A DNA stretch of 64,000 bases from Candidatus Kuenenia stuttgartensis (GTDB lineage: Bacteria > Planctomycetota > Planctomycetia > Pirellulales > UBA1268), in assembly GCA_945870505.1 (NCBI GenBank), contig CAMBSN010000003.1:824-64823 (forward strand), given 5' to 3'. Both the position numbers and the translations under genes were made by a program. The notes below the pieces were generated by a model. That model made no database searches. It was not told the origin of the DNA and saw only the letters and a list, made by a program, of their open reading frames with translations. Positions 1-19,084 of the stretch are shown piece after piece (position 1 is the first letter of the stretch; each line of letters opens with the position of its first letter).

Positions 1-1111
1 TGTTCCCCGATAGGGTCAGCGTGCCGGCACCTTGCTTCGTGAGAATGCCGGTGCCACTGATGACACCCGAATAGGTCGAGGCATCGGAGCGGTTGAAGAC
101 GAGCGTCCCATTATTAACGAGGCTGCCCGTGCCGCCGAGGAGTACTCCGCTTGTGGTTCCGACACCTATCTGGAGCGTGCCACCGGCGTTGACGTTGATG
201 GTGCCATACGTGCCCTTCGAGAGCGTGCCGCCGACCGTTACAAGGCCACCCGTCATCAAGAATGTGCCGGTGCCGCTGCTGCTGCCCACGGCGAGATTGC
301 CGCTGGTGGCCCACGTACCGCTCGACACCGTGGCCGTGCCGTTACTGCCGGCGTTGCTGCCGATATAGCCGGTTGTGTTGGTGACACTACCGCCGTTCAC
401 GTTGAGCGTGCCAGTGCCGCTGCTACCGACGAACAGATTGTTGTTACTCGCCCACGTACCGCTCGACACCGTGGCCGTGCCGTTACTGCCGGCGGTGGAG
501 CCGAGAACGCCGGACGCGCTACTGACACGTCCGCCCGTCACGTTGAGCGTGCCGGTGCCGCTTCTGCCGACGGTGAGGTTACCGCTGTTAGCCCACGTGC
601 CGCTGCTCGCCGTGGCTCTACCGTTGCTACCGGCGTAGAAGCCGAGATAGCCGTATGTGTTGGTGATGCTGCCGCCGTTCACGTTCAGCGTGCCGGTGCC
701 GCTGCCGCCGACCCAGAGGTCGCCAGTTCCCGAACGAATCCACAGCAGCCCCGACGACGCAGAGGTGGTCATGTCCAGCACAACGGTATTCGCAGCAGCC
801 GACGTGCCGGTCAGGTTCAGTGTGCCGGTGTTCGTCAGCGATAGCGTGCCAGTGCCCGAGATCGTGTTGCTAATGGTCAGGGTGTTGCCGCTTGACTGAT
901 TGAACTGCAGCGTGCCGTTGTCGGTGATGTTGCCCGTGACTGATGCGCCGTCGTTCAAGAGCACGGTGGCGCCGGAAGAGATCGTCCCTCCCGCATAGAC
1001 GCCGGTGTAGGTCGTGGTCGCAGCCGTCGAGGAGTCTGCGCAGAGCGAGAGTAGCGAAGCCACGAAGGCGACGAGAGCAGACCGACATAAACGTGCTCGA
1101 CCGTCAGCCAT
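1..1111 (-). CDS. Secreted repeat-rich adhesin/autotransporter-like protein, 3' part beyond window start
   Basis: Not in ORF track because it runs off the edge. Manual translation: ATG at 1111 with GGAG upstream, MADGRARLCRSALVAFVASLLSLCADSSTAATTTYTG (signal-peptide-like), Gly/Thr/Ser/Asn-rich repeats, and an in-frame ILTKQGAGTLTLSGN passenger-associated repeat at the window edge. Confidence 0.85.
   Translation of the reverse strand, partial: MADGRARLCRSALVAFVASLLSLCADSSTAATTTYTGVYAGGTISSGATVLLNDGASVTGNITDNGTLQFNQSSGNTLTISNTISGTGTLSLTNTGTLNLTGTSAAANTVVLDMTTSASSGLLWIRSGTGDLWVGGSGTGTLNVNGGSITNTYGYLGFYAGSNGRATASSGTWANSGNLTVGRSGTGTLNVTGGRVSSASGVLGSTAGSNGTATVSSGTWASNNNLFVGSSGTGTLNVNGGSVTNTTGYIGSNAGSNGTATVSSGTWATSGNLAVGSSSGTGTFLMTGGLVTVGGTLSKGTYGTINVNAGGTLQIGVGTTSGVLLGGTGSLVNNGTLVFNRSDASTYSGVISGTGILTKQGAGTLTLSGN
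310..635. repeat. Intragenic tandem repeat, 141-bp period (47 aa)
   Basis: cccacgtaccgctcgacaccgtggccgtgccgttactgccggcg at about 310 and 450, diverged third copy near 591; encodes G-S-N-G-T-A-T-V-S-S-G-T-W-A-type units resembling T5SS/PEP-CTERM-associated repeats. Confidence 0.8.
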
Positions 1112-1263
1112 TGCCACGCTCCGCCCAAATGGTGCCCGGGGAGTCTGTACGCCATCCCTTACATGCGGGGTGTGCACATTGTGGCTATCGCGGCCAAGGG
1201 GTCAACGTTTCGGCAGGAATAGACGGCATACGAGTGCAGAAGCCGACCAGAAACTGCGCAGCC

Positions 1264-1524
1264 TCACCCCCACCGCCATCTCGGAGGCTCGCCCTTCCAC
1301 CAGCAGATCACGATAAAGGTGGCGATGAGCGTGCCAAACCCAGCCCAGAACCAGTTGGGATGGCGATCAGCGGGGACAAGCACGCAGGGGCCGATGAGCA
1401 GGCCGACATAGCCCCCGAGCACGACCCATGCCTGCCATGTGCTCGGCAGGCCCCAACCCCAGCCGTAGGTCTTCGCCGGGAACCAGTGGCGGGGCTTCGG
1501 ATGGGGCGGATCCTCAGATGACAT
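1264..1524 (-). CDS. Small Trp-rich two-TM membrane protein
   Basis: WFPAKTYGWGWGLP...two hydrophobic segments...KGEPPRWRWG, a pattern typical of a conserved hypothetical family. Confidence 0.75.
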   Translation of the reverse strand: MSSEDPPHPKPRHWFPAKTYGWGWGLPSTWQAWVVLGGYVGLLIGPCVLVPADRHPNWFWAGFGTLIATFIVICWWKGEPPRWRWG

Positions 1525-1600
1525 TGGGTTGTTGGCAGTGGGCAGCGGCGGGAAATGCGAACGGCACCGGGCCGGCTAAGAACACTGACTTATGCGCACG

Positions 1601-1944
1601 CTGAATTGACAACAATATCGCCGCGGATGAAGCAGTGTGGTCGCCGGGTACTGCTTTACTCACCCCGTTTCTGAGTCAGGGCCCATGCTCGCGATGACCG
1701 CAGCCCATCCCGGCGGCTATCTGTGAGGCGAGCCGGACCTGACCAACCCTGATTCGCGCAGCCAAGCCCGCGCACGCCACCATGATCGGCCCCGAAGGCT
1801 TGTTGGGCAGAACGCGGCCGCAGTGCTTTTGATGCCCGTGCAGTCCGGCCAGCCCAAGCCCGAGCCAATTCACTGCACAGGCACTAGTATTAAGTTTTTT
1901 CCCGCACCCTGAGAAACCTACCGGCGTCTTTGTTGTCAATTCAA
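1601..1944. mobile_element. MITE-like non-autonomous element, 344 bp
   Basis: Perfect 14-bp inverted repeat TGAATTGACAACAA (1602-1615) / TTGTTGTCAATTCA (1930-1943), flanked by direct repeat CGCACG (1595-1600, 1945-1950); no transposase inside. Confidence 0.7.
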
Positions 1945-1991
1945 CGCACGCCCCATGTACACAGCCGGCGTTCGCTTGCGCTCGCCACCCC

Positions 1992-2504
1992 ATGCGCTAC
2001 GATGGCGGCATGAGTCACGGACGAGCCACGAGGGCCGGCTTGGGGGCGTCGTTGTGCTGCCGGCGGGTGAGCATGGGGTCGAGCCAAACAAGCCCTCTGG
2101 TAAGCGCTGGGAGCCCTTCTCGGTGGTGTTCGCGGGGAGGGCTGGGCTGGAGCGAACTGGGCGACGTCGTGGGGCATATGCGGCTCACGCTGCCGCCCGC
2201 CAAGCCCGTGGTCGTGAGGGCGGCTACACTGGATCCCGGGCTATTGGGAACGTGTGCGCGGCGGCCGGAGAGGTTCGTCATCAGGCTGAATAAGGCCCTG
2301 ACGGACGCCGAGGCCACCGAGACGCTGCTCCACGAATGGGCCCACGCATTGGCATGGAGTTTCACCTTCGACAGACTGGCTAGAACTCCTGACACCACCC
2401 GGGAAGCCTTTGAAGCCGCCGCCCATGACGAGGCTTGGGGGTGCGCTTATTCGCGGGTGTGGCGGGAATACGTGAGGATGCACGATGCCGAAGATGCCAA
2501 GTGA
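1992..2504 (+). CDS. HExxH zinc metallopeptidase (SprT/ImmA-IrrE-like); true start probably downstream
   Basis: FVIRLN...ETLLHEWAHAL with a distal third-ligand-like HDEAWG. Confidence 0.75.
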   Translation: MRYDGGMSHGRATRAGLGASLCCRRVSMGSSQTSPLVSAGSPSRWCSRGGLGWSELGDVVGHMRLTLPPAKPVVVRAATLDPGLLGTCARRPERFVIRLNKALTDAEATETLLHEWAHALAWSFTFDRLARTPDTTREAFEAAAHDEAWGCAYSRVWREYVRMHDAEDAK

Positions 2505-3246
2505 AGAGATTGACGTAAAGGCTGGGGAGTCGAATCTCCTGCCAATACTGGACCACCTCGCGTGGCTGGCCGAGCGCGTTGCCGACAAGGCCAACGCCGG
2601 CCGGGCCTATGATGCCGCGCTGCTGACCTACAACGCCGCGGTCATGCTGGAGTGGCGATTTAGGTTTCCGCTTGGCGATTGGGCTGTCCCACCGGATAGC
2701 CCTCGATGGGCCGAGGCCGCCAAACTCGTGGACGACCTCTCGATGTCGTCCCGGGCGATCGTCGAGAAGGTTGAGGCTGCGCCGAAGAAGAAAGCCGACG
2801 CCTACCGGCCCAAGTTGAGGATGCTCATCAAGAGAGTGCTCAAGAAACTACCGGCCGTACTCTCGGTGCGAACTCCGAAGCCGGCTTATATGCCCGCGCT
2901 GGACTGGTCGCCCAACGTCCGGCTGCTCATGGACGAGTTTCTGGACGCCCATCGGCACGAGTACGCCGACGCGATCAAGAAGGGCTTGGCTGCCGGCAAG
3001 GCAGACAGCGTCGGCCCGGAGGCGGCCCTGAGCGAAGCCATCGCGAGCCTCCTGTACGTGCACACCTCGCAAGGTATGGCAGCCCAGTCTGTAGACCACC
3101 GCCGCTCGCTCGGCCAAATGGCGTCGGGATTTCTCAAGACCGCCGTCGAGGACCTACCGGATGGCGTGCCTGCAGCCCAGAAGAAGCGATGGCGCCGGTT
3201 GGCCAAATGGTTCGCTGCCGATAGCGCCGACGCCAAGGTGAAGTAG
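2485..3246 (+). CDS. Hypothetical, predicted alpha-helical protein
   Basis: 253-aa ORF overlapping the upstream gene, 10 nt from the next gene; protein-like composition, no motif recognised. Confidence 0.7.
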   Translation: MPKMPSEEIDVKAGESNLLPILDHLAWLAERVADKANAGRAYDAALLTYNAAVMLEWRFRFPLGDWAVPPDSPRWAEAAKLVDDLSMSSRAIVEKVEAAPKKKADAYRPKLRMLIKRVLKKLPAVLSVRTPKPAYMPALDWSPNVRLLMDEFLDAHRHEYADAIKKGLAAGKADSVGPEAALSEAIASLLYVHTSQGMAAQSVDHRRSLGQMASGFLKTAVEDLPDGVPAAQKKRWRRLAKWFAADSADAKVK

Positions 3247-3256
3247 CCCTCGCGCC

Positions 3257-4273
3257 ATGGCCAAGAAAAAGAAAAAAGCCGCCAAGCGGGTGGCGAAGCG
3301 GGCCGGGAAACGATCCACCAAGCGTGGGCAAGTGGTTGCGAAGCGCGCGGCACGGAAGAAGTCCGAGGGGCCGGCTGTGGATCGGTCGCTTCCTGAGAGT
3401 CACGTGGCGCTTCCGCAGGCCGACGCGCTCAAGACGCTAGCCGATGCCGTGCTTGGCCTGACGGCCAGCAACGAACAAATCGTGCGGGAACAGCGCGAGC
3501 ATCGCCTTACCTTGGAGATGCTCTTGGAGTCCGTCGCCAAAGGCTCCGCTGCTATGGACCGCATCGAGGCGGCCCAGCAGGCTCCACCGCGAGACCCGAG
3601 CCTTGACGTGCCGGCGAGCGTGGCAGTGAAGCGATTCTTTTTTGCCGGGGCGTGCGCACATCTAAACCTCGTTCGGCCGACACCTGCGATCGTCGGCCGA
3701 GCGATGCACACCACCAACGCCACCTCTCGCACAACGGCGAGGAGTCCGTATGTATTGTTCAACGAGATCCACACATCGATGCTACTTGCGTTCGGCCTGA
3801 AGGCATCGACTCCCGCGGCCCCTGTGACGACGGCAAGAGACTTCATTCACCTCGACGCGGAAATGGTTGACGTGATAGAGGACCGATCCAAGCGACCAAA
3901 AAAGAAACATTGGAAGTTCTACGAAAGCCAGTTGGGGCCGCGCCTCCGGCTTCTTGTGAACATGAGGCTTGCCAACGTTGACCCGAACAATGTGGGAGAG
4001 CGGATCGATTACGACCGCTACCTAACGAAGTTGGGGCAAGAGTTGTTCGACGGCTGGCCGGACTGGAACGACACGACTGGCGGAATTGGCATCTTGGACG
4101 ACGTTCCGGCATCAATAATGGGTGTGTCCAAGGTGGTAGGGCCGGCTGGATCGAAGCCCACTCCTGCAACTATGACTACACCTGCGCCAGAGCCCGCGCC
4201 CGAATCTGCGCCCACACCTGCGCCCAAGCCCGACGCTGGCGCCGAGCCTGAGCCTACTTCGCCGGCTCCGTGA
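3257..4273 (+). CDS. Hypothetical protein: Lys/Arg-rich N-terminus, coiled coil, possible winged helix, Pro-rich tail
   Basis: MAKKKKKAAKRVAKRAGKR...; LGPRLRLLVNMRL...YLTKLGQELF resembles the end of a wHTH; PAPEPAP tail. Confidence 0.7.
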   Translation: MAKKKKKAAKRVAKRAGKRSTKRGQVVAKRAARKKSEGPAVDRSLPESHVALPQADALKTLADAVLGLTASNEQIVREQREHRLTLEMLLESVAKGSAAMDRIEAAQQAPPRDPSLDVPASVAVKRFFFAGACAHLNLVRPTPAIVGRAMHTTNATSRTTARSPYVLFNEIHTSMLLAFGLKASTPAAPVTTARDFIHLDAEMVDVIEDRSKRPKKKHWKFYESQLGPRLRLLVNMRLANVDPNNVGERIDYDRYLTKLGQELFDGWPDWNDTTGGIGILDDVPASIMGVSKVVGPAGSKPTPATMTTPAPEPAPESAPTPAPKPDAGAEPEPTSPAP

Positions 4274-6746
4274 CCGTGACCTTGTCGGCCTTGCTGAACG
4301 ACCGGCGGACCTCGGTCTCGACGCGGACGTTGGCGCCGGGCACGACCGTCTGCATGCCCGTGATCATGAGCCGCTCGATGTCGGCGATCTTGGCGGGGAG
4401 AGTCTCGTCCTCGGGCACCTCGATGATGACCTCGTCGTGGATGAAGTTCACGATCGTGTAGCCGGCGCGCATGAGGCCCCAGAGAGCGTAGATGGCACCG
4501 TCGGCCGCGAGCCCCTGCATGATGCCGTTTCTGCACGCGGCGTAACTGGCGTTGGCCCGGAGCCTACCCGTCGCTGTGATGACCGGCTCGCGGCTATAGA
4601 TCCTGCTGACGGCATCCCGGAGCCGCTTCGAGGGCTTTCGCTCTCGAAGGGCGTCGCAGAGTTTGTCGTCCAGTTCGTCGGTGGGGAGCCGTGCCGCCGC
4701 CTGCCAGAAGTACTCGATCTCGGCGGCTGAATATGGGCGGGGCTGGTTGCCGGATTCCGGGAGCGGGTTGGTCATCGGGGCGGGTGACTCAAGCACCTTC
4801 AGAAGCATGCCGCCGAGCCACCCCGCGGGCAGGTCGTCTTCGGGCTTGGGGAATAGCCGAGGTTTGCCTGTCGCCGCGTAATAGGCCGCCGGCGTGAGCC
4901 CCAACGCGCGGGCAATTTCGAGGCCCCCATTCACCCGCTCGCTCAAGTGCGCGGTCAACTCGGGGCACAGGGTCTCGTACGCCTGCATGCGTTCCCGGAC
5001 CTGCTCCTCGGTCAGGTCGACACCGTAGTCGTTCTTGGCCTGCTTCTGGATGGTCTTCCCACCCAGACCTCCGGGGCGGCCGAGCGACACCGGTTTGGCG
5101 GCGTTACGCTCATCATCGGTCACGTCCTCCGGGGCCTTGCCGAGCACGTACGCCGCGATCAACCGGTGCATGTCGCCGCCGCCCGCAATGATGTCATGCA
5201 GGCTGCCGCCGAAGCCGAGTTGGTGTTTCCAAGCCCAACCCAGCGTGACTAGTTCAATCGTCTTGTAGTCCAGCACCACAAACACGTTCCCCGGGGCCGG
5301 CACGAAGCAGCCCCGGATCGTCGTGGCGTGGTTTTCAGTGGCGGCCCGTTCCTTCGGTAAGTTCTGGAGATTGAACCCGCCGACGTCTTTCTTGCCGCCG
5401 TTGCAACTCGTCCGGCCGGTGTTCATGAGGTACTCGAAATTTCCGTGGACGCGTTTCCCGGACACCATCTTCTTGGCGTAGGTCGAGAGGAGTTTTGTGG
5501 CCTGCCGGTGCCTGAGCAGGACTTCGAGCACTGGGTCCAAGCCGGCGAGTTCCTTCAGTTGCTCCTCGCTCGTCGCAATCTGGCCGGTCTCTGTATAGAT
5601 CAGTGGTAGGGTTTCGCCCGCCTGCTTGTGCTCATTGGCTAGCCGTTCGATGCGTTTGACGAGGGCGGAGGTCTTGCCGGCGCCCTCAACAGGAAGTCCA
5701 GCCAGAGCGAGCGTTCGGCGGGTCTCGGCGACGATCTGTTCGAGGACGGCCAACTTTTCCTCGCGGCGGGCTTGGTCGATGAGGACCCCCGTGCGCGAGA
5801 TCTTGTCCGTGACGATGCTAGCCCTGAGTTGGATGTCGTGGGTGCCGGGGCCGTGTTTCTTCCGCTGTTCGGCGAGCCATTTTTCACCCGCATAGCCATA
5901 GGCCCCGACCGCGATGGTTTTGATGACGTCTAGTTCGGGCTTCAGTCGCTCGAACAGAAGCCACGTCGCTACCGGGTCTCCTGCGGCGTATTGGAGGTAT
6001 TGGGCCGGGTACGCTTCGAGGGGCTTGCCGTGGTACCTGCCGAATGTGAGCCGGACAGATTCGCCGTCCGGAGTCTTGTCGTCCTTGGGGAGCGACAGGG
6101 AGAGGTAATGGCTCGCGCAGTAGTCGAGCGAGCACTGGTTCCGCGCCGAGTGCCCAACCGTGCCGAGCGAAAGCAGCCGGGCGAGGATCAGCGTATCGGC
6201 TACTCTTCCGGCCTCGACGCGGGAATAAACGTCAATTGAAAGCCCTCTCCGATCGTGAGCCGCCTGCAGTACCGGCAGATCGAAGGCGGCGTTGTGGAAG
6301 ATGAGCGGGTTGGCGGGGTGGCTGGCCAAGAAGGCGGGCATGTCCGTGGCCAAGATGAACCAGCCCTGCCGCCCGTCGAAGGCTGCTCCCAAGACGAGCG
6401 TGGGCACGTGCGCTGGGCGCGTGTCGTCGATCTTGGTCGTTTCAGTGTCCAGTGCGAAGCGGCCGGTGATGACGCGGCCAAGGGTGGGTTCCCAGAGGCG
6501 GAACAGGTACTGGTCGGGCCCGAGGGTGAGGACGAAGCCCCCGGAGGGTGAAAGGGTGAAGCAGGGCGAAGTGAAGTTTCGGGGCACTTCACCCTCGTTT
6601 GGGCCTTGTTTTCCAGTGTTTTTCGCACTTGGGTGAAGAGGTGAAGTGAAATCAGCATCTCTTCGGCCTAGATGCACACACTCCTCCCCATGCCCATATC
6701 CAAGACTGAGAGATTTTTCCTTTACAGATTTTGGTTTTGACTTCAC
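4254..6746 (-). CDS. Phage-type family A DNA polymerase with 3'-5' exonuclease, no 5' nuclease
   Basis: ExoI FALDTET, ExoII FHNAAFD, ExoIII YAAGD; TGRTS, NLQNLP; motif A LDYKTIEL; motif B RNAAKPVSLGRPGG; MQGLAAD; motif C FIHDEVIIE. GTG 6746 has GGAGG 8 nt upstream. Confidence 0.92.
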   Translation of the reverse strand: MKSKPKSVKEKSLSLGYGHGEECVHLGRRDADFTSPLHPSAKNTGKQGPNEGEVPRNFTSPCFTLSPSGGFVLTLGPDQYLFRLWEPTLGRVITGRFALDTETTKIDDTRPAHVPTLVLGAAFDGRQGWFILATDMPAFLASHPANPLIFHNAAFDLPVLQAAHDRRGLSIDVYSRVEAGRVADTLILARLLSLGTVGHSARNQCSLDYCASHYLSLSLPKDDKTPDGESVRLTFGRYHGKPLEAYPAQYLQYAAGDPVATWLLFERLKPELDVIKTIAVGAYGYAGEKWLAEQRKKHGPGTHDIQLRASIVTDKISRTGVLIDQARREEKLAVLEQIVAETRRTLALAGLPVEGAGKTSALVKRIERLANEHKQAGETLPLIYTETGQIATSEEQLKELAGLDPVLEVLLRHRQATKLLSTYAKKMVSGKRVHGNFEYLMNTGRTSCNGGKKDVGGFNLQNLPKERAATENHATTIRGCFVPAPGNVFVVLDYKTIELVTLGWAWKHQLGFGGSLHDIIAGGGDMHRLIAAYVLGKAPEDVTDDERNAAKPVSLGRPGGLGGKTIQKQAKNDYGVDLTEEQVRERMQAYETLCPELTAHLSERVNGGLEIARALGLTPAAYYAATGKPRLFPKPEDDLPAGWLGGMLLKVLESPAPMTNPLPESGNQPRPYSAAEIEYFWQAAARLPTDELDDKLCDALRERKPSKRLRDAVSRIYSREPVITATGRLRANASYAACRNGIMQGLAADGAIYALWGLMRAGYTIVNFIHDEVIIEVPEDETLPAKIADIERLMITGMQTVVPGANVRVETEVRRSFSKADKVTVTEPAK

Positions 6747-6844
6747 CTCTTCACCCTCCGCATGAAAGTGCCTTGTTTTCTAGATCCAAACGAGGGTGAA
6801 GTGAACTTTTTGGGCACTTCACCCTGCTTCACCTCTTCACCCTC
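6544..6844. repeat. Symmetric iteron-like array of GGTGAAG repeats; putative replication origin
   Basis: 59-bp imperfect inverted arms 6544-6602 / 6786-6844; perfect 17-bp inner inverted repeat 6631-6647 / 6740-6756; T-rich tract about 6712-6739; lies between the helicase and the polymerase core. Confidence 0.75.
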
Positions 6845-8810
6845 GCCCCGGCCCCCAGAGGTCATCCTCCTGCCCCTCGCCGGCAGCCTCGGGCTCGCCT
6901 CGGCCACCGTCGCCGTCACGATCTCTATTACCCCCGCTGACCTCAGGCCCCGGCGGCAGGAGGGTGATGGCGTCGGAGTCGGCGCAGCCGGTCGGGGTCG
7001 CCTCCGCGCCAGCACCGCCGTCACCGCCCTCCGCGTCCGTGCCCTTCACCTCCGACAAGCCCTTCACGGCGAGAGCGTAGGCCACGCGGCGTCCCCCGAG
7101 CGGCCGGCTTACGATCATCGCCTGCACCGTCCGCTCGCCCACCTCGACCTCGACGGGCACCTTGAGCACCCCGTTGAGGTACTGCGAGGCGGCGGTCTTC
7201 TGCTTATCCGGCGTCGTGCATGCGGCCGTGATGACGCCGGCGCCGGCAAGGTAATGCACCCAGTCCTTCTGCTCCCTCGGGTTCGCCGGCCGGGGTCCAC
7301 GCTTAAACTCGTCGTCAGCGGCCTCGATGTCACCTTCGACCTCCAACACGAACGACTTATCCCTGCTGTCAATTAAGCGCTCCGCGATGGCGACCAACTG
7401 CTGGTGCGTCGTCGAGTGCTGGCGCACCTCCTCTCGGGCGTTTGACAGGAAGCCCGGCAGGCCGTTAGCGGCAAGGATGCTGCCGACGGTGTTGCTGAAC
7501 TTCTCGAACCGACCCGGCGTGTGGACTATTATGCGGCCGGCATCAAGCCACCGGCGCACCATCCCCGCCGCCTCGGCCAAGATCCCCGCCCGGTTCGTCT
7601 TCACGAACCCGACGACCTCGTCCTCGGTCACAGCGTATTGGTGTGCGCCCGGATCACCTTCGTAGTGCATCCGAATGTGGATGCACCGTGACAAAAGGTC
7701 GTCGCTCGGGGCCCCGTTGTTTGTTGTAAACAGCCAGAGGATGTCATTTGGCTTTCGAATCTTGTTTTGGGTGAAGAATCCGCGAGGACCGAGTTCGGAA
7801 TCCGTTATGTTTGCCTCAAGTGTCGGGTGGTTGATCTTCCCCTTCTGGTTGTCGAAAAACAGCGTCGTGCGGCCATCGTTCAGTTCACTAGCGATCTGGT
7901 TTTCGATCTCCCTCGCACCGCTCTCTAACGACGTAGGTGCCGCTTGCTTGCCGTCCTTGAGGATGGCGAGGCACTGCGCCGCCAAGGATTTGCCGATGCC
8001 GGGCTTGTTGCCCCAAAACATCATGGCGGGGTGTCCGGCTTCGATGAACAGGGGCATCAGTACGGTCATCAATGGCCCAGCGATGCAGTTGATGAGATCG
8101 ATCGGCGACTTCCAGTGAAACCCCCGCACCCACTCGCGCATCAATGGCGGTAGGCGATCCAGCACCTCCCTGACGGTCGCCGGCGCCGTGAGGCTCAATC
8201 CCAAGGGTGGCAAGTCAATTGGATCGAAGGACTCCCCGCACACGAGAATGCGCTGGCTCTCGTGGTAGCCCGCGTCGAGCCAGACGAAGTCGTTGTCGAA
8301 CACCGGGTGGCTCGTGAGGAGCCTCGCCTCAGGGATCGACGCCATGAAGTTGTCCATGACGACCACCTGCTGGAGCACCGATTGTGGCACTGGAAACTGC
8401 ACGGGATACACCGAAGGTTGATCCACCTTCGCGCCCTTGCCGGTCGAGTTCGCCTTCATCTCCCGGCAATAGACGACGTTGCTTACCAGCGCGGACGCAG
8501 TCTTGGTGGCGACGCCATCGACGGCAAGTGGCGTGACGTGGCAGGCGCCTTCGGGGAGATGGCCGTTGGTCAGGAAGACAACCGTGTTGCCTTGACGGAA
8601 CACTCGACCGCAGTCTTTGAGGCAGTTCCTGATCGTATCGAGCGTCTCGGTCGCCTCGCCGATGATCAAGCCGCTCGACGTGACGTTGGTGATCAGCCGG
8701 GGGCCGGTGACGCCGCGGGCCATGGCGACCGCGGCAGACCGAGCCTGCCGCAGATCACGCATGATCCAGTTGTGGGCGCCGCGGCGGTTGAAGTCTGCAA
8801 AACTAACCAC
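6837..8810 (-). CDS. Primase-associated P-loop helicase/ATPase (SF3/AAA+-like)
   Basis: Walker A GNKPGIGKS, Walker B LFFDN, TTNN sensor, DLLSR Arg finger; GTG at 8810 with GAGGA SD overlapping the primase stop. Confidence 0.8.
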   Translation of the reverse strand: MVSFADFNRRGAHNWIMRDLRQARSAAVAMARGVTGPRLITNVTSSGLIIGEATETLDTIRNCLKDCGRVFRQGNTVVFLTNGHLPEGACHVTPLAVDGVATKTASALVSNVVYCREMKANSTGKGAKVDQPSVYPVQFPVPQSVLQQVVVMDNFMASIPEARLLTSHPVFDNDFVWLDAGYHESQRILVCGESFDPIDLPPLGLSLTAPATVREVLDRLPPLMREWVRGFHWKSPIDLINCIAGPLMTVLMPLFIEAGHPAMMFWGNKPGIGKSLAAQCLAILKDGKQAAPTSLESGAREIENQIASELNDGRTTLFFDNQKGKINHPTLEANITDSELGPRGFFTQNKIRKPNDILWLFTTNNGAPSDDLLSRCIHIRMHYEGDPGAHQYAVTEDEVVGFVKTNRAGILAEAAGMVRRWLDAGRIIVHTPGRFEKFSNTVGSILAANGLPGFLSNAREEVRQHSTTHQQLVAIAERLIDSRDKSFVLEVEGDIEAADDEFKRGPRPANPREQKDWVHYLAGAGVITAACTTPDKQKTAASQYLNGVLKVPVEVEVGERTVQAMIVSRPLGGRRVAYALAVKGLSEVKGTDAEGGDGGAGAEATPTGCADSDAITLLPPGPEVSGGNRDRDGDGGRGEPEAAGEGQEDDLWGPGRG

Positions 8811-9639
8811 GGGAGTCCTCTCTCTTGTCGAGGAACGTGGGGGAATAGAAGAGGTACACCATCGCGGCGGCATCCACCCGCCCGCACTCGTAGCACTCGA
8901 CCTGCCAGTTACCGACGACCCCCAGCGTGTGGGTGGTCGCTCCGCACAGTGGGCAGGGCGACGCTCGCTCGCCGCCGAAGAACAGCCGCATCCACAGGCG
9001 GGCCGGAGCGTTTGCCAACCGCTGGTTAAGGTCGAGGATCTCAGCGCGAGTGATCGGCTCGCCCTTGCGCAGCACCCGAACCTTCCTAGGCGGGTCGACC
9101 TTCGTGTTGCGTGCCCCGACCGGCCGGGTCATAGCGACGATGCCGTTAAGGCTCGGATCACCCGGCAGCACGTTCCGCAGCCCTCGGGCGATCTTGTCCC
9201 AGTGGCGAGCGTCGTCGCCGGCACAGATGATCGGCTCGTCCAGCATCAGGAGCACGTGCAGGCCGTGGCCGCTGTCCCGGACCTGCGCTTTGGCGAGCAC
9301 CGGGTCGCGGTCGAGCCAGTGTCTGACGTGCTGCTTGTATAAGGCTGCCGGCGACCGAACGCATTCCTCGCCGACGATGGCGGGGTCGAGGATCTTGCAG
9401 TCGAGGTCCGACATGAAGGCATGGATCGAGGCGACCTCTTCGACCTTCGTTGCGATCTGATTGGCTGGGCCGCATTCGCGCCCGTTCACGAGCGACTCCC
9501 GCTCGTCGTTGGCACCGTGATCGTGAGCCCGCGAATGGGTGGCGGCGGAGTGTGGCGGCTGACCGGGTACGCCTCCATCTAATTGCTGCTCGTCACGGTG
9601 CTTGGTCGCCCGCTTCGAGCGACCCTTCTTCTCTCGCAT
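8803..9639 (-). CDS. AEP-superfamily (RepB'-like) primase with C-terminal Zn finger
   Basis: SDLD, DSGHGLHVLL, RPVGARNTK and CPLC-x14-CYEC; ATG at 9639 preceded by GGAGA. Confidence 0.75.
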   Translation of the reverse strand: MREKKGRSKRATKHRDEQQLDGGVPGQPPHSAATHSRAHDHGANDERESLVNGRECGPANQIATKVEEVASIHAFMSDLDCKILDPAIVGEECVRSPAALYKQHVRHWLDRDPVLAKAQVRDSGHGLHVLLMLDEPIICAGDDARHWDKIARGLRNVLPGDPSLNGIVAMTRPVGARNTKVDPPRKVRVLRKGEPITRAEILDLNQRLANAPARLWMRLFFGGERASPCPLCGATTHTLGVVGNWQVECYECGRVDAAAMVYLFYSPTFLDKREDSRG

Positions 9640-9738
9640 CTCGATGTCTCCGTTCTTCGTGTTCGACGGCGGCGTGCACGTCGTTCCCCCAACATGGCGA
9701 TATCGCCGGCGATCGCAAGAGACTTCGGACGTTCGATC

Positions 9739-9797
9739 GCGAGTCGACTCCCGTGTTGAAGGGAGTCGGACTCCCAAACACAAGGGAGTCGACTCGC
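9739..9797. promoter_or_regulatory. Tripartite palindromic operator between divergent genes
   Basis: GCGAGTCGACTCCC (9739-9752), GGGAGTCGGACTCCC (9761-9775), GGGAGTCGACTCGC (9784-9797); centres 22.5 bp apart. Confidence 0.65.
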
Positions 9798-9911
9798 TCG
9801 CGCAACCATTCCCAAGTCCAACTCCGCCGCTACCCTCGAAGTTGTCGTGGTCGAAGTGCACCACGACGAAACCTTCACGGCCGCGCAACGCGGCAGGAAA
9901 CGGAGCGAGTT

Positions 9912-10655
9912 ATGTCGGCGACGACGATCGAGATGAGCGATGCAGCAGTAGTTGATGCGCCGGTGGCGGCGACGTTGATCGTGGTGAACGACGGGACGAC
10001 GGCGGCCACGACGCCCGCGGCAGCCATGGAAGCGATGGTGGTTCGCGGCACTCCTTTAGTACCGGCCGCCGACGGTGAGCGTGGCGGCAACGGCGATGGT
10101 GGAGGCGGGGCGGAACCATATAAGGAGTCCGCGCCTCCGCCCTTGGAGGTCATCGGCGGCTATACAGTCCACCCGGTGGCCACGCTGTTCCCCTTGATGG
10201 CCGGCGACGAGTTCGAGGGCCTAGTCGAGTCGATCGGTAAGAACGGCCTCCGAGACCCGATCGTGCTGCAGGGGAACATGCTAATCGAGGGCCGCAACCG
10301 CATGCGGGCCGTCGAGTTGCTCAAGGCCCGGGGCGTGAACGTCACCTTGCTCACGGTCCCGTGGCAGCCGCGACCGGGTGAGACCGCCGCGCAGTACATC
10401 ACCGACAAGAACATCCATCGGCGGCACCTCACCGACGCCCAGCGAGCCCAGATCGTCGCCGAGATCGTCCCCGTGATCGAGGCGGAGTTGGCGGCGGAGA
10501 GGGTGAAGACCCAGATCAAGTCGGGGGAGGACTTCAATGCCCGCGTCGAGCGGGCGTGGGAGCACATCAAGGCGGCCCACTTCAGCGTCGAGGAGCACGA
10601 GCGGCTGCGGGAGGTGCTCGCGGCGAGGATCGAGGAGGGTGTGAGAAATGCGTGA
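9912..10655 (+). CDS. ParB/Srx N-terminal-domain protein
   Basis: HPVATLFPLM...LVESIGKNGLRDPIVL...LIEGRNRMRA...NIHRRHLTDAQRA; ATG 9912 with GGAG SD. Confidence 0.8.
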   Translation: MSATTIEMSDAAVVDAPVAATLIVVNDGTTAATTPAAAMEAMVVRGTPLVPAADGERGGNGDGGGGAEPYKESAPPPLEVIGGYTVHPVATLFPLMAGDEFEGLVESIGKNGLRDPIVLQGNMLIEGRNRMRAVELLKARGVNVTLLTVPWQPRPGETAAQYITDKNIHRRHLTDAQRAQIVAEIVPVIEAELAAERVKTQIKSGEDFNARVERAWEHIKAAHFSVEEHERLREVLAARIEEGVRNA

Positions 10656-10890
10656 GAATGGCAACGTGGACTCAGATCGTGAGACGCTATTGGATGAGCG
10701 GGCCGCCGCGAGGTTCCTCGGCATCTGTCCTCGGAAGTTGTGGGGTCTCGCGAACAAGGGTGTCGTCCCCTTCATCAGGATCGGCGTAAAGTCAAAGCGA
10801 TATTCCCAAAAGGATCTCGAAGACTTTATCGCGGCGAGCCGTCAAAGATCACCCGAACCAGCCGGTACCCAACAAGACGATGTCGTCTAA
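10648..10890 (+). CDS. Excisionase-like HTH DNA-binding protein
   Basis: LLDERAAARFLGI...GVVPFIRIG...RYSQKDLEDFI; directly upstream of the integrase. Confidence 0.85.
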   Translation: MRENGNVDSDRETLLDERAAARFLGICPRKLWGLANKGVVPFIRIGVKSKRYSQKDLEDFIAASRQRSPEPAGTQQDDVV

Positions 10891-10929
10891 CACGTCGATC
10901 GCTACAACGAATAAAAGGAGGAGTAAGCA

Positions 10930-12378
10930 ATGGCTTCGATTGGAAATGATCCCGGGGGCCGCCGCCGGATATTGTTTGTTGGTATGGACGGAAAACGGCA
11001 CACCGTCCGCTTGGGGAAAATGCCAAAGCGTGCCGCCGAAGAAGTGAAGCGTCGTGTCGAGGAACTGATTGCCGCGCAAATCAGCCGTAGTCCGATCGAC
11101 GCAGAGACCGCGCGCTGGGTGGCGGACCTGCCCGAGACCATGGTCACCCGCTTTGCCGCGGCTGGACTGGTAGCCGCACGGGAGCGGAAGGTCACGGTGC
11201 CGCTCAAGAAGTTTCTCGACGCCTTCGTGGAGCGCAAGCGGAGGGTGAAGCCCGCCACCAAGGAAATCTGGGGGCAGGTCATCCGGAATCTCATCGACTG
11301 CTTCGGCGCGGATCACGACGTCGCGGCGGTAACCGAGGAGGACGCTGAAAAATTCAAGGATTATCTGATCGATCAGAAACTGGCCCGAACCACCATCTCG
11401 AAGCGGCTGCAGTTCACCCGCGGATTCTTCAAGTTCGCCGTCAAGAAGAAGTTGATCGTGCAGAACCCGTTCGCAGAGGTGTCCGAAGTCGCCGTCGGCC
11501 TGCCGAACACGAAGAGGTTTATTTCACATGAGGAGACGACGGCCCTGATGGCGGCCAGTGACCTGATGTGGCAGACCATCATCGCCCTTGCCCGTTATGG
11601 CGGGCTTCGGTGCCCGAGCGAGGTTGCTTCGCTGCGGTGGGAAGACATCGACTGGAACAGTGGCCGCATGACCGTCACGTCGCCAAAAACCGAGCATCAC
11701 GAAGGGAAGGAGACTCGTGTGCTGCCAATCTTCCCGGAACTGGCCCCTGTGCTCGCCGCCGCTTTCGAGGCCGCAGAGGACGGCGCGGTTTACGTGATCG
11801 GCGGCAATGTACGGGCCAAAGCGTTGCAGCCACGCGGATGGCGATCGTGCAACCTGCGGACTCAGTTCGGCAGGATCATCAAGCGGGCCGGGCTGAAGGC
11901 GTGGCCGCGCCTGTTCCACAATCTCCGCGCGAGCCGGGAGACCGAGTTGCTCCGCGAGCACCCCATCCACGTCGTGACGGCGTGGCTGGGTAACTCGCCG
12001 CGGATCGCCCTCAAGCACTACTGCATGGTCACCGACCACGACTTTGACCGTGCCCGAGGTGTGGCTGCGGCCGCCGTCAACCAGGGAGTCGGTTCCGCGA
12101 CACCTCCCATCGAACCGGCCGCCTTAAACACCCAGTCCTCTATAGAGGTATCGGCACCGGAGGGGCGCGGCACAGAATCCGGCACAGTCGTGGCACAAAA
12201 TGCGGCACAGCAACCGCACGCAGCCACTAGTAAGGTTTCGCACGCTTCGGGCGCAAAGCCTTCGCCCACCGTCACTTCTGCGAGTTCCTGCGACTCGCTG
12301 CGAAACCCTGCGAAACCCAAAAACGGAGAGGGCGGGATTCGAACCCGCGGTCCAGCTTTTGACCGGACACGTCTTTAG
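10930..12378 (+). CDS. Tyrosine recombinase/integrase
   Basis: GGLRCPSE, SPKTE, FHNLRAS, WLGNS, KHY; AGGAGGAG SD; low-complexity tail reads into the tRNA antisense strand. Confidence 0.93.
   Translation: MASIGNDPGGRRRILFVGMDGKRHTVRLGKMPKRAAEEVKRRVEELIAAQISRSPIDAETARWVADLPETMVTRFAAAGLVAARERKVTVPLKKFLDAFVERKRRVKPATKEIWGQVIRNLIDCFGADHDVAAVTEEDAEKFKDYLIDQKLARTTISKRLQFTRGFFKFAVKKKLIVQNPFAEVSEVAVGLPNTKRFISHEETTALMAASDLMWQTIIALARYGGLRCPSEVASLRWEDIDWNSGRMTVTSPKTEHHEGKETRVLPIFPELAPVLAAAFEAAEDGAVYVIGGNVRAKALQPRGWRSCNLRTQFGRIIKRAGLKAWPRLFHNLRASRETELLREHPIHVVTAWLGNSPRIALKHYCMVTDHDFDRARGVAAAAVNQGVGSATPPIEPAALNTQSSIEVSAPEGRGTESGTVVAQNAAQQPHAATSKVSHASGAKPSPTVTSASSCDSLRNPAKPKNGEGGIRTRGPAFDRTRL
12169..12318. 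repeat. Phased direct repeats next to att (putative arm-type and Xis sites)
   Basis: GGCACA at 12169, 12181, 12192, 12204; CTGCGA at 12278, 12288, 12298, 12308. Confidence 0.6.
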
Positions 12379-12413
12379 CAAAGACGCGCATTCGACCACT
12401 CTGCCACCTCTCC
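12324..12413 (-). tRNA. tRNA-Ser(GCT)
   Basis: GGAGAGG/CCTCTCC acceptor stem, CGTCT-TTGCTAA-AGACG anticodon arm, long variable arm, GTTCGAATC T loop; no encoded CCA. Confidence 0.95.
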
Positions 12414-12573
12414 TGCACCGGATCGCCTCCCAGGCCGACGCGACTTTCCCAGACGGGAAGGTCGCCCCGGACTCGGCCGACGGAACCGGGAAGAAACCCC
12501 GTGGTCCGGGGAAATCCTTCGCCGACTATTCTGGACGCCACTCTGGCGTCCCGCAAGGAGGCAGCGCCGAACC

Positions 12574-13908: not shown

Positions 13909-13943
13909 CCAGTCGCGAGCCCCTGCCACACACATCAGCCGGG

Positions 13944-13971
13944 AAAAAAGACGGGCCCCTCATCGGGGCCC
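13944..13971 (-). terminator. Rho-independent terminator
   Basis: GGGCCCC-gatga-GGGGCCC hairpin followed by gtcTTTTTT on the minus strand, downstream of the acidic protein gene. Confidence 0.7.
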
Positions 13972-14031
13972 AGTTTGCGTGAGCAGGTCGACCGAGTTCG
14001 CCGACAAAAGAGCGGACTCGGGCGATGACGA

Positions 14032-14523: not shown

Positions 14524-14703
14524 GGCAAAAACCTCCTAGAACTGATCAACAACGACACCACCGAACATTTCTCTACCTGATCGCTCCAGCATCGTCCAAT
14601 CGACAGGCGAAAAAACACCTGTCTTCGGAAAGCTGCGGGCGGCCCGGCGAGGCAGACAGTGTGTCCACCGCCCGCGGAGCGTGCAAGTCGCTCGCCCGAG
14701 GAT

Positions 14704-15438: not shown

Positions 15439-15462
15439 GGAATCATCGAATGGCGATCGGGA

Positions 15463-16026: not shown

Positions 16027-16169
16027 GCAGGATGCAAGGCCTCAACGCGGGGCGGGGAGGCTAGCGGCCATCCGTCGCCACGGCAATCGTGAAACCCCGC
16101 CGGACGCGGAGACTGCGCAAGAAGGGGGCACGCCGTAGAGAGGGTTTTTCAATGCCCTGGCCTGCCTCG

Positions 16170-17207: not shown

Positions 17208-17365
17208 GCCATCTCCTGCCGCACTCCCCCGCATGGTACGCGACCGATGGGCGGTCCAGAAGCACCGCCGCGGGGCCGCTGGCGAAACCGCGGTCCTCCG
17301 GCGACAATCCGATGCTGCGAGGGCCGCCACTTCGGCGCGACCCCAGCGTCCTCGGCCACCCTCCC

Positions 17366-18454: not shown

Positions 18455-18459
18455 AGCCG

Positions 18460-19080: not shown

Positions 19081-19084
19081 GGGA

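What the first reader, a model, noticed from the sequence alone, without database searches (positions are those of the whole stretch)
1992..12413. tRNA-Ser-integrated element with its own primase-helicase-PolA replisome and no visible virion or transfer genes
Seen: tRNA-Ser <- [ParB-like, xis, int] divergent from [primase, helicase, repeat array, PolA], which converges on a three-gene cargo operon. Established: P4-like satellites and PICIs have int-HTH-primase/helicase-ori but rely on host polymerase, pipolins use a primer-independent PolB, and PolA normally occurs in full phages. Inference: this is a compact self-synthesizing integrative element or satellite built on a family A polymerase, possibly an undescribed class in planctomycetes. 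Caveat: the left end lies outside the window, so structural genes could be there.
Basis: partly seen in the sequence, partly recalled or inferred. Interest (0 to 1): 0.88.

Follow-up and report, generated by a model that had tools for sequence, protein, structure and literature searches.

The report
tRNA island carrying its own replisome
A mobile DNA island inserted beside a serine tRNA gene of a freshwater planctomycete encodes its own primase, helicase and proofreading DNA polymerase but no virus-coat or mating genes, an unusual make-up for such islands.

Summary
From tRNA-Ser(GCT) (12324-12413, -) leftwards lie a tyrosine integrase, an HTH_17 excisionase, a ParB-like gene, then divergently an AEP-like primase, a D5-like SF3 helicase, an iteron array and an exo-proficient family A polymerase, converging on a SprT-like gene plus two unknown genes.

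This order recurs in about 19 other loci, at tRNA-Ser, -Met and -Pro, with dN/dS of 0.1-0.4. The element was found in 6 of 68 genomes of the genus and in 0 of 400 other genomes of the phylum. It is a real mobile family, not a chance mosaic.

The "cargo operon" is conserved core, not cargo. No capsid, portal or large-terminase family was found in this assembly. Four of the five other carrier genomes also lack capsid and terminase matches, so an ordinary prophage is unlikely.

"Compact" is not shown. Family conservation stops at the SprT-like gene. However, a 19-nt copy of the tRNA end lies on another contig beside a serine recombinase. In one relative the matching repeat lies 36 kb away, across defence-type cargo.

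My best reading is a roughly 10.4-kb replicative backbone of variable-size tRNA islands, with an unknown transfer route. Polymerase-bearing integrative elements are already in print (SCC-type CcPol, tycheposons, some marine satellites), so I rate this a new variant of a known kind.

The parts
12324..12413 (-). tRNA-Ser(GCT); the proximal attachment site is at its 3' end
   Evidence: ARAGORN; Rfam tRNA 59.6 bits. The integrase ORF overlaps its 3' end.
10930..12378 (+). tyrosine integrase
   Evidence: Pfam Phage_integrase E 1.4e-10 and SAM-like N-domains. phrog_1 E 2.1e-36. It is 39% identical to the integrase of the G033 copy and 46% to that of a different tRNA-Ser island.
10648..10890 (+). HTH_17 excisionase / AlpA-type regulator
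   Evidence: Pfam HTH_17 E 1.4e-7, above the cut-off. phrog_66 'excisionase and transcriptional regulator' E 4.3e-5.
9912..10655 (+). ParB-like protein (ORF open from 9450; ATG at 9912)
   Evidence: PHROG ParB-like families, E 2.6e-11 to 3e-7. No Pfam hit. Homologues in L049, L054, L055 and L058 but not in the G033 copy.
9739..9797 (.). 29-nt-arm palindrome in the divergent promoter region; putative operator (inferred)
   Evidence: the repeat finder I3: 83% complementary, 1 nt between the arms; sequence read.
8803..9639 (-). AEP-like primase with a C-terminal zinc ribbon
   Evidence: Invariant D78, D80, H128, D161 and four Cys in 13 sequences. Model pLDDT 72.3. Best folds: S-2L PrimPol Z 7.4, RepB' 5.3, CAPP Prim-Pol 5.2, DnaG zinc domain 5.0. 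Foldseek top hit prob 0.93, E 0.086.
6837..8873 (-). D5-like SF3 helicase (start probably GTG at 8810, overlapping the primase stop)
   Evidence: Walker A GNKPGIGKS. Model pLDDT 72.8. Foldseek prob 1.00 to poxvirus D5/E5, ASFV PrimPol, NrS-1 C-terminal region, SCCmec Cch, the SaPI5 primase-helicase and PriRep1. phrog_10537 E 1.2e-26.
6540..6850 (.). iteron / inverted-repeat array around an A+T-richer spacer; putative origin of replication
   Evidence: the repeat finder I1, I6, I15, I16, D19. 10 of the window's 35 GGTGAAG/CTTCACC copies lie here. Same layout in 11 of 11 loci.
4254..6587 (-). family A DNA polymerase with a 3'-5' exonuclease domain (ORF open to 6746; start uncertain, and the 5' end overlaps the iterons)
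   Evidence: Pfam DNA_pol_A E 6.1e-29 and DNA_pol_A_exo1 E 3.7e-8. phrog_17 E 1.5e-75. Klenow E 5.6e-15. Exo and pol acidic residues are invariant in 20 sequences down to 46% identity.
3257..4273 (+). conserved unknown protein (338 aa; Lys-rich N-terminus, Pro/Ala-rich C-terminus)
   Evidence: No Pfam, PHROG or PADLOC hit. 24 homologous clusters, all unnamed. Present in L050 and L053/L062.
2485..3246 (+). conserved unknown protein (253 aa, helical)
   Evidence: No family hit. 37 representatives in 1.84 billion proteins. Profile against PDB found nothing below E 0.1.
1992..2504 (+). SprT-like HExxH metalloprotease (weak match); last gene conserved across the family
   Evidence: Pfam SprT-like E 1.2e-4, 22.4 bits, below the 25.6 cut-off. 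phrog_87 metallo-protease E 0.0033. Homologues in L044, L050, L053/L062 and L064. Family conservation ends here.
1..1991 (-). region of uncertain membership: a repeat-rich secreted protein that runs off the contig (2-1177), a small membrane protein (1264-1524) and a 470-nt spacer with a 30-nt inverted repeat
   Evidence: Not conserved in other family members. However, one X1 contig spans 923-4114 at element-like depth. No att remnant in 1100-2200.

Best explanation
Window ~2000-12323 is the conserved backbone (about 10.4 kb) of a family of tRNA-integrating genomic islands in one freshwater planctomycete genus.

Shown by homology or fold:
- Int and Xis sit at the tRNA end.
- A divergently transcribed replication module consists of an AEP-like primase, a D5-like SF3 helicase, an iteron array and a proofreading family A polymerase.
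- A conserved trio of a SprT-like protease and two unknown proteins completes the backbone.

Inferred:
- After Int/Xis excision, the circle is replicated from the iteron region by the element's own three enzymes. That gives a T7-style minimal replisome built from different parts.
- The palindrome between the divergent operons is the regulatory switch.
- Variable cargo hangs on the SprT-distal side. In this genome that would be a secreted repeat protein, a small membrane protein and possibly a serine recombinase. In G033 it would be restriction-modification and other nuclease or ATPase genes.

The element has no virion or conjugation genes of its own. Its route between cells is not known; a helper phage, vesicles or transformation are all possible.
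For: Gene identities.

Conserved order:
- Primase next to helicase in 22 of 23 loci (L057 starts inside the helicase).
- Polymerase follows the helicase in 13 of 13 loci that reach far enough.
- The SprT-like gene is present in 5 of 6 loci that extend more than 2.5 kb past the polymerase.

Mobility and distribution:
- Copies sit at tRNA-Ser (here), tRNA-Met and tRNA-Pro, with integrases that differ between copies.
- Patchy spread: 6 of 68 genomes of the genus and 0 of 400 other genomes of the phylum.

Function retained:
- Purifying selection on all seven genes tested. dN/dS was 0.11-0.40 in 20 of 21 comparisons, with one not computable and dS often near saturation.
- Iteron layout conserved in 11 of 11 loci.

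Not a prophage:
- 0 matches to HK97 capsid, two TerL families and portal in this 87%-complete assembly.
- 0 of 5 other carriers have a capsid match, and only G064 has a TerL match, on another contig.
- 0 relatives of the helicase among 2.9 million viral contigs.

Cargo reading:
- A 19-nt exact copy of the tRNA-Ser 3' end lies on C76:2038-2056, with host-type genes on one side and a large serine recombinase on the other.
- A 23/26-nt copy of the tRNA-Met 3' end lies 36 kb from the G033 copy. Type III R-M, GIY-YIG, PD-(D/E)XK and AAA genes lie between, with no virion family among them.
- An X1 contig crosses the SprT-distal point (923-4114) at depth 7.65, like the core (8.17) and unlike the host flank (12.6).
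- No internal att remnant.
Against: - No copy with both ends on one contig and a convincing repeat was found. The two candidate distal repeats are short (E 0.002 and 0.015 in their searches), and one lies on another contig that cannot be joined to C3.
- Family conservation stops exactly at the SprT-like gene. That equally fits a compact element next to unrelated islands.
- A gene block shared by G020 and G033 sits at different distances and orientations.
- Run X2 holds the core at about 99% identity, but the sequence diverges left of ~1267 and the right host flank is missing.
- No attP or empty-site joint was seen, and element depth is not raised (contigs only).
- Support for the primase fold is modest (Z 7.4, below the tool's own caution line of 8).
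- Excision, replication and transfer are all untested.
- L050 and L064 lie on the 5' side of a tRNA-Arg, which is not the usual geometry.
Confidence: 0.55

Rival explanations
1. This is a compact element of about 10.4-10.8 kb. Its distal end lies in the 470-nt spacer between the small membrane gene and the SprT-like gene. The DNA further left (and the 25 kb beyond SprT in G033) belongs to older, unrelated islands stacked at the same tRNA.
For: - Conservation among all family members stops at the SprT-like gene.
- Regions beyond it share nothing in L044, L062, L064 and G000.
- The small membrane gene occurs in 10 or so genomes without the element.
- tRNA genes of this genus are hot spots with several different islands.
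- Many family contigs in the protein database are 11-16 kb long.
Against: - No att remnant at the proposed end: local alignment score 21 against a shuffle mean of 19 and maximum of 27.
- No direct repeat of 11 nt or more in five loci.
- The X1 contig 923-4114 crosses the proposed end without a branch, at core-like depth.
- L050 shows no terminal overlap that would suggest a circle.
Confidence: 0.25
2. This is a phage satellite. The element excises and replicates when a helper phage infects, and it is packaged in the helper's capsids. The SprT-like protein and the two unknown proteins would manipulate the helper.
For: The architecture (int, AlpA/Xis-type HTH, D5-like helicase with primase, iteron origin, no structural genes) is that of P4-like satellites and PICIs. 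The helicase model matches the SaPI5 primase-helicase (7ola) at prob 1.00. The general satellite description is quoted from the abstract of PMC13376191 (listing).
Against: - No small terminase, capsid-size or packaging gene was recognised in Pfam, PHROGs or PADLOC.
- 0 helicase relatives in viral contigs.
- No candidate helper prophage in 4 of 5 carriers.
- If the islands are 15-36 kb with cargo, they are large for a satellite.
Confidence: 0.2
3. This is a decayed prophage. Only the integration and replication modules of a temperate PolA-type phage remain.
For: Family A polymerase with primase and helicase is typical of phages (phrog_17 E 1.5e-75; 1028 phage records match the polymerase). The G082 copy has two stop codons in the helicase.
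Against: - The same truncated gene set with the same boundaries appears in about 19 loci at three tRNAs.
- All core genes are under purifying selection.
- The best cultured-phage polymerase is only about 25% identical.
- No structural families in the carriers.
Confidence: 0.05
4. The polymerase, helicase and primase do not replicate the element. They serve the host or the island in repair or anti-phage defence.
For: The purpose of the analogous SCC-type polymerase-helicase operons is called unknown, and a defence role is raised as a possibility in PMC10061031 (section 4 read). Neighbouring cargo in G033 is defence-like.
Against: - The iteron array sits between the helicase and polymerase genes in 11 of 11 loci.
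- There is tight linkage to Int and Xis.
- No PADLOC family matches any core protein apart from a weak DEDDh hit on the polymerase's exo domain.
Confidence: 0.05

Closest known systems
P4-like satellites and PICIs (e.g. SaPI5 primase-helicase)
   Same: Integrase at the attachment site, a small HTH excisionase/regulator, a D5-like SF3 helicase associated with a primase, an iteron-type origin and no virion genes. The helicase model matches 7ola at prob 1.00.
   Different: The primase is a separate AEP-like gene. The element adds its own proofreading family A polymerase. No packaging or capsid-redirecting gene was recognised and no helper is known. The unit may exceed satellite size.
SCC / SCCmec-type islands with the CcPol-MP-Cch2 operon
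   Same: A chromosomal island that couples an A-family polymerase with an SF3/MCM-like helicase; why such islands replicate is unknown (PMC10061031, sections 3.1 and 4 read). The helicase model also matches Cch (5dgk). A large serine recombinase lies at the candidate distal end here.
   Different: CcPol lacks most of the exo domain and acts as a primase with an SSB-like partner (passages in PMC10201439). Here the exo motifs are invariant and a separate primase exists. The backbone uses a tyrosine integrase and tRNA sites rather than rlmH, and the host is Planctomycetota rather than Bacillota.
Pipolins and casposons (self-synthesizing elements)
   Same: Integrative elements that bring their own DNA polymerase (abstracts of PMC7385651 and PMC4779613, search listing only).
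   Different: Those use family B polymerases. Here it is family A, with a dedicated primase and helicase.
Tycheposons (Prochlorococcus) and marine VEIME satellites
   Same: tRNA-integrating islands with a tyrosine recombinase, an excisionase, primase/helicase genes and distal cargo. Passages mention 'polymerases, primases, helicases' (10.1101/2020.12.28.424599) and 'DNA polymerase genes' in some module 6 VEIMEs (PMC9618062).
   Different: Different hosts. The passages I saw do not name the polymerase family. Homology to those elements was not tested here, and their supplements were not available.
Phage T7 replisome (gp4 primase-helicase plus gp5 polymerase)
   Same: A minimal three-activity replisome built around a family A polymerase with 3'-5' exonuclease (T7-like cluster described in PMC10201439 passages; the rest is recalled).
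   Different: T7 uses a Toprim primase fused to an SF4 helicase and belongs to a complete virus. Here there is an AEP-like primase and an SF3 helicase on a non-viral island. The polymerase is at most ~25% identical to any cultured-phage enzyme.

Membership tests
Family A DNA polymerase | DNA_pol_A polymerase domain above the curated cut-off | tested here: met
   PF00476 E 6.1e-29, 101.6 bits against a cut-off of 34.3. Klenow E 5.6e-15.
Family A DNA polymerase | Conserved acidic residues of the 3'-5' exo and polymerase motifs (motif names recalled) | tested here: met
   D38, E40, N90, F93, D94, Y191, D195, D431, E436, R485, K489, H708 and D709 are invariant in 20 sequences down to 46% identity. 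PF01612 E 3.7e-8.
D5-like superfamily 3 helicase | P-loop ATPase core with the D5/E5-type fold | tested here: met
   Foldseek prob 1.00, E 6e-7 to 2e-5 to MPXV E5, vaccinia D5, ASFV PrimPol, NrS-1, Cch, SaPI5 and PriRep1; 134 matches at E<=0.001. Walker A GNKPGIGKS. The sequence profile alone finds no PDB relative.
Archaeo-eukaryotic primase (AEP) superfamily | AEP catalytic fold with the acidic/His/acidic motifs | tested here: inconclusive
   The top four fold matches are all AEP primases, but Z is 7.4, 5.3, 5.3 and 5.2, below the tool's caution line of 8. Foldseek E 0.086, prob 0.93. D78, D80, H128 and D161 are invariant in 13 sequences. No Pfam or PHROG hit.
Temperate tailed prophage | Large terminase, portal and major capsid genes within the integrated unit | tested here: not met
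   PF05065, PF03354, PF03237 and PF04860 gave 0 matches in G000, which is 87% complete. PF05065 matched 0 of 5 other carriers, and TerL matched only G064:C157. Only four families were tested and the left end is unassembled.
Phage satellite (P4-like / PICI / PICMI) | Integrase, regulator/excisionase and primase-helicase replication module, without structural genes | tested here: met
   no structural family in the nine core proteins.
Phage satellite (P4-like / PICI / PICMI) | att-flanked unit of about 7-20 kb | tested here: inconclusive
   No flanking repeat at the end of the conserved core. The candidate repeats imply at least 15 kb here and 36 kb in G033.
Phage satellite (P4-like / PICI / PICMI) | Helper-phage dependence, packaging signal or capsid-redirecting genes, presence in virions | not testable with these tools
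   No terS-like or capsid-related family among the core proteins. 0 helicase relatives in viral contigs, which does not settle the point.
Self-synthesizing elements (casposons, pipolins) | Family B DNA polymerase | tested here: not met
   The only polymerase is family A.
SCC-type CcPol-MP-Cch islands | Exo-truncated A-family polymerase acting as a primase with an SSB-like partner; large serine recombinase; rlmH or ssrA site | tested here: not met
   The exo domain is present and conserved. The backbone has a tyrosine integrase at a tRNA. An SSB-like partner was not looked for by fold.
Integrative conjugative / mobilizable element | Relaxase, coupling protein, T4SS | tested here: not met
   No such Pfam or PHROG family in the nine core proteins or in the 20 flanking ORFs scanned. 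A genome-wide search for these families was not run.
Tycheposons | tRNA-targeting tyrosine recombinase island with a replication module and distal cargo | tested here: inconclusive
   The architecture agrees. Sequence relationship to tycheposon hallmark genes was not tested.

The most novel reading that the evidence does not exclude
This would be a third lineage of 'self-synthesizing' integrative elements, alongside the PolB-based casposons and pipolins. In this reading it is a non-viral, tRNA-integrating island family whose backbone encodes a complete minimal replisome: an AEP primase, an SF3 helicase and a proofreading family A polymerase acting on an iteron origin. It replicates autonomously after excision and ferries variable cargo.
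Probability: 0.35. Interest if true: 0.8.

Novelty: new variant of a known kind. Interest (0 to 1): 0.6.

Why it matters
Integrative islands and satellites normally borrow the host's or a helper's polymerase. The known exceptions use family B enzymes, or a truncated A-family enzyme turned primase.

A family with an intact, proofreading PolA plus a separate primase and helicase, under purifying selection and without virion genes, would show that a T7-style replisome can live outside viruses. It would provide a small, defined origin-plus-three-protein system to reconstitute. It would also add a replicon and possible genetic tool for Planctomycetota, a phylum with few known mobile elements.

The finding further suggests that some 'cellular auxiliary' PolA clades might sit on such islands. 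That idea was not tested here.

Tried and rejected
- Second att copy: none in the window. No repeat of 11 nt or more between the tRNA side and the SprT side in five loci. Local alignment of window 1100-2200 to the att region was no better than shuffles.
- Empty sites by synteny: the tRNA-Ser and tRNA-Met flanks are rearranged or end at contig breaks in the relatives examined. No empty site was obtained.
- Joining C76 to C3: no contig end overlaps either of them.
- Reads: only assembled contigs of four runs were available. No attP or empty-site joint appeared among the rows shown, and loose ends at 12317-12324 cannot be told apart from other species' tRNA-Ser flanks.
- Circularity: the whole contig L050 has no terminal overlap.
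- Function of the two unknown proteins: no Pfam, PHROG or PADLOC hit. The Atlas gave no usable hit. The profile against PDB gave nothing below E 0.1. Homologues are all unnamed.
- Helicase sequence profile against PDB: nothing (best E 0.12). The fold search was needed.
- Viral, phage and plasmid collections hold only distant relatives. The helicase has 0 relatives in viral contigs. It is 22-28% identical over 44% of its length to genes of 51 large Caulobacter/Brevundimonas-type phage records. It matches 6 plasmid records at 26% identity or less. The polymerase is at most ~25% identical to cultured-phage enzymes and 23-49% over best segments in 12 viral contigs.
- Promoter and terminator scans were at chance level.
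- Literature: four full-text searches found no description of this family or of PolA-bearing islands in Planctomycetota. Supplements of the tycheposon and VEIME papers, which might list polymerase families, were not available.

Full report
**What is there**

The window is G000:C3:824-64823, from a 180-contig, 87%-complete assembly. Only 823 nt of contig lie to its left. ARAGORN and Rfam place tRNA-Ser(GCT) at 12324-12413 on the minus strand, so its 3' end faces left.

Reading leftwards from the tRNA:
- A tyrosine integrase at 10930-12378 (+). Pfam E 1.4e-10; phrog_1 E 2.1e-36. Its last 55 nt overlap the tRNA.
- An HTH_17 excisionase-type gene at 10648-10890 (+), E 1.4e-7.
- A ParB-like gene in ORF 9450-10655, with an ATG at 9912. 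It is supported by PHROGs only, E 2.6e-11 to 3e-7.

A 29-nt-arm palindrome (9739-9797) sits in the divergent intergenic region.

On the minus strand follow:
- A 278-aa protein (8803-9639).
- A 678-aa P-loop protein (6837-8873). By comparison with homologues, its start is probably the GTG at 8810, which overlaps the upstream stop.
- A repeat-rich 310 nt (6540-6850).
- A family A polymerase with a 3'-5' exonuclease domain (4254 to about 6587; DNA_pol_A E 6.1e-29, exo E 3.7e-8).

Three plus-strand genes converge on the polymerase. They are a weak SprT-like HExxH protein (1992-2504; E 1.2e-4, below Pfam's cut-off) and two proteins with no family.

G+C is 0.62-0.655 across 1-12000 and 0.66-0.705 in the next 14 kb.

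**What the replication proteins are**

- *Helicase.* The 678-aa protein, modelled with 24 homologues (pLDDT 72.8), matches poxvirus D5/E5, ASFV PrimPol, the NrS-1 C-terminal region, SCCmec Cch, the SaPI5 primase-helicase and PriRep1. Foldseek probability is 1.00, E is 6e-7 to 2e-5, and 134 matches have E<=0.001. It carries the Walker A sequence GNKPGIGKS. I read it as a D5-like SF3 helicase. Sequence alone finds no solved relative.
- *Primase.* The 278-aa protein (13-sequence alignment, pLDDT 72.3) has invariant D78, D80, H128 and D161, and a four-Cys ribbon. In the Foldseek-independent search its four best folds are AEP primases: S-2L PrimPol Z 7.4, RepB' Z 5.3 (two entries) and CAPP Prim-Pol Z 5.2. 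The C-terminal part resembles the DnaG zinc-binding domain, Z 5.0. Foldseek's own top hit is the same PrimPol, prob 0.93, E 0.086. The scores are modest, so 'AEP-like primase' is likely rather than proven.
- *Polymerase.* The acidic residues of the three exo motifs and of motifs A and C, and the motif B lysine, are invariant in 20 sequences down to 46% identity (motif names are recalled). Motif B has Leu where Pol I has Phe. The PolA reclassification paper reports this trait for its SPO2-like, KPP25-like, APEX and CHEAP clusters (passages of PMC10201439). I did not test which cluster this enzyme belongs to.

**The repeat array**

GGTGAAG or its complement occurs 35 times in the 64-kb window, and 10 of those copies lie in 6540-6850. 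They are arranged as direct and inverted sets around an A+T-richer centre. The same layout, with 5 to 13 copies, is present between the helicase and polymerase genes in 11 of 11 family loci examined. This is what an iteron origin looks like. That it is the origin remains an inference.

**It is a family, and it moves**

- *Homologues.* The helicase has 91 homologous protein clusters at 44-88% identity, none with a Pfam domain. The polymerase has 394 clusters at E<=1e-10. These form a close tier at 57-89% identity and a second tier at 45-48% that includes records named from other phyla.
- *Distribution.* Within the genus, 6 of 68 genomes (this one included) have the helicase. One of them (G082) has two stop codons in it. 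None of 400 other genomes sampled from the phylum has it at E<=1e-40.
- *Gene order.* In 23 fetched loci (about 19 distinct after counting identical hit patterns once), the primase and helicase are adjacent in 22. The polymerase follows in all 13 loci that extend far enough. The SprT-like gene is present in 5 of 6 loci that reach more than 2.5 kb beyond the polymerase, but not in L063.
- *Sites.* The neighbouring tRNA is Ser here, Met in the G033-type copies and Pro in four loci. In L050 and L064 a tRNA-Arg lies alongside but in an orientation that puts the element on its 5' side.
- *Integrases.* They differ between copies: 39% identity to G033's, and undetectable at E 1e-4 in others. The ParB-like gene is present in only some copies.
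- *Selection.* dN/dS against four relatives is 0.11-0.40 for all seven genes tested, in 20 of 21 comparisons. One was not computable, and several dS values are near saturation.

The 'cargo operon' is part of the conserved core.

**Not an ordinary prophage**

- HK97-type capsid, two large-terminase families and the portal family give 0 matches in this assembly. The same searches ring in 3-5 of the 14 control genomes.
- In the five other carriers (93-99% complete) the capsid family gives 0 of 5. The terminase families match only G064, on a different contig.
- Only four families were tested. Divergent structural genes could be missed.
- The helicase has no relative among the viral contigs.
- Cultured phages and plasmids hold only distant relatives of the helicase and polymerase.
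- None of the nine core proteins, nor the 20 flanking ORFs scanned in relatives, matches a virion, relaxase or T4SS family.

**Where does it end?**

This is the weak point.

*Evidence that points to a compact element:*
- All-against-all tblastx shows that conservation between family members stops at the start of the SprT-like gene, at window ~2030. Beyond it the loci share nothing.
- No repeat of the tRNA end is found there.

*Three observations that point to a larger unit:*
1. An exact 19-nt copy of the tRNA-Ser 3' end (17 nt of tRNA plus 2 nt) lies at C76:2038-2056 in the orientation expected for a distal site. Host-type genes lie on one side. On the other is a large serine recombinase (Resolvase, Recombinase and Zn_ribbon_recom domains) that runs off the contig. 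BLAST E is 0.002 for the 160-nt query. C76 and C3 cannot be joined from the assembly.
2. In G033, whose copy lies on a 450-kb contig, the only same-strand copy of the tRNA-Met 3' end (23 of 26 nt, E 0.015) lies 36 kb away. Between it and the SprT-like gene are a GIY-YIG gene, a LuxR-type response regulator, a type III restriction-modification pair, a DUF1257/DUF6878/DUF6915/AAA block and a PD-(D/E)XK nuclease.
3. In the run that probably supplied this assembly, one contig spans 923-4114 without a branch. Its depth is 7.65, like the core contig 6132-12350 (8.17) and unlike the host-flank contig (12.6). These are per-contig figures and weak evidence. They do show no sign of raised copy number.

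An independent drinking-water run holds the core at about 99% identity. It diverges left of ~1267 and lacks the right-hand host flank. The element therefore sits in more than one context.

I conclude that the ~10.4-kb stretch is a conserved backbone. Whether the DNA beyond it is its cargo or a stack of older islands is open, and I give 0.55 and 0.25 to these readings.

**How it most likely works**

- *Shown:* the gene identities, the conserved cis-array, mobility between tRNA sites and purifying selection.
- *Inferred:* Int and Xis excise a circle. The SF3 helicase (perhaps through its N-terminal 230 residues) opens the iteron region. The AEP-like enzyme primes. The proofreading PolA copies the element. 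The palindrome between the divergent operons acts as the switch.
- *Speculative:* the SprT-like protease might act on a repressor or on DNA-protein adducts. This rests only on its HExxH motif.
- *Unknown:* the route of transfer.

**Comparison with what is known**

- *Satellites.* The architecture is that of P4-like satellites and PICIs, with a polymerase added.
- *SCC-type islands.* Integrative islands with an A-family polymerase next to an SF3/MCM-like helicase are described for SCC-type elements of Bacillota. There the polymerase is exo-truncated and primes with an SSB-like partner, and the islands use serine recombinases (PMC10061031, sections 3.1 and 4 read; passages of PMC10201439).
- *Tycheposons and VEIMEs.* Tycheposons are said to carry 'polymerases, primases, helicases', and some marine VEIME satellites to carry 'DNA polymerase genes' (passages only; supplements not seen).
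- *Pipolins and casposons.* These use family B enzymes (abstracts in the search listings).
- *Literature search.* Four full-text searches found no description of this family or of PolA-bearing islands in Planctomycetota.

I therefore call it a new variant of a known kind, not a new category.

**Verdict**

Interest is 0.6. The boldest reading still open is a PolA-based lineage of self-synthesizing integrative elements. I give it a probability of about 0.35, and it would deserve about 0.8 if true.

Noticed in passing
L025 (G033:C2:100000-119999), island about 6395-19490: A different ~13-kb island sits at the same tRNA-Ser(GCT) in a relative. It is flanked by a perfect 34-nt repeat of the tRNA 3' end and carries an integrase 46% identical to the one here. 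It has no primase, helicase or polymerase homologue. Two of its ORFs looked Cas7/Cas5-like to me, which was not tested.
   Followed up: partly
genus-wide, tRNA-Met(CAT) locus, e.g. G079:C6:158289-174413: Many genomes of the genus carry a ~46-nt partial copy of the tRNA-Met 3' end at 1.3 to 16 kb from the full gene. In G000, contigs C106 and C11 break right at tRNA-Met and next to tRNA-Pro(GGG), with an integrase at the C11 contig end. tRNA genes appear to be general island hot spots in this genus.
   Followed up: partly
window ~5294-5316 and ~10500-10526: Contigs of two public runs join these two places in reciprocal forms: X3 skips 5209 nt (shorter side only 23 nt), and X2 goes from 10500 back to 5294 with 39 other letters between. 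There is no homology between the two places. This could be a deletion derivative, a small circle of the replication module, or an assembly chimera.
   Followed up: partly
L063:16679-20072 and L013:2979-6525: A DUF1257 - DUF6878 - DUF6915 - AAA ATPase block is shared by the islands of G020 and G033, at different distance and orientation relative to the polymerase. The ATPase matches PADLOC IetA models, E 9.6e-22.
   Followed up: partly
window 1594-1623 and 1922-1951: A 30-nt inverted repeat (80% complementary, 298 nt apart) lies in the spacer between the small membrane gene and the SprT-like gene, just outside the conserved core.
   Followed up: no
L026:3484-3620 and more than 100 places in G000: A ~140-nt sequence next to tRNA-Ser in G026 matches over 100 places across G000 contigs at 70-89% identity. 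It is probably the conserved 5' end of a very large paralogous gene family.
   Followed up: no
G082:C18:23134-25128: The helicase of this copy contains one TGA and one TAG, and no integrase was detected beside it. It looks like a decaying copy of the element.
   Followed up: no
window 57419-59480: A cluster of five tRNA genes (Trp, Thr, Gly, Tyr, Thr) lies far from the finding.
   Followed up: no
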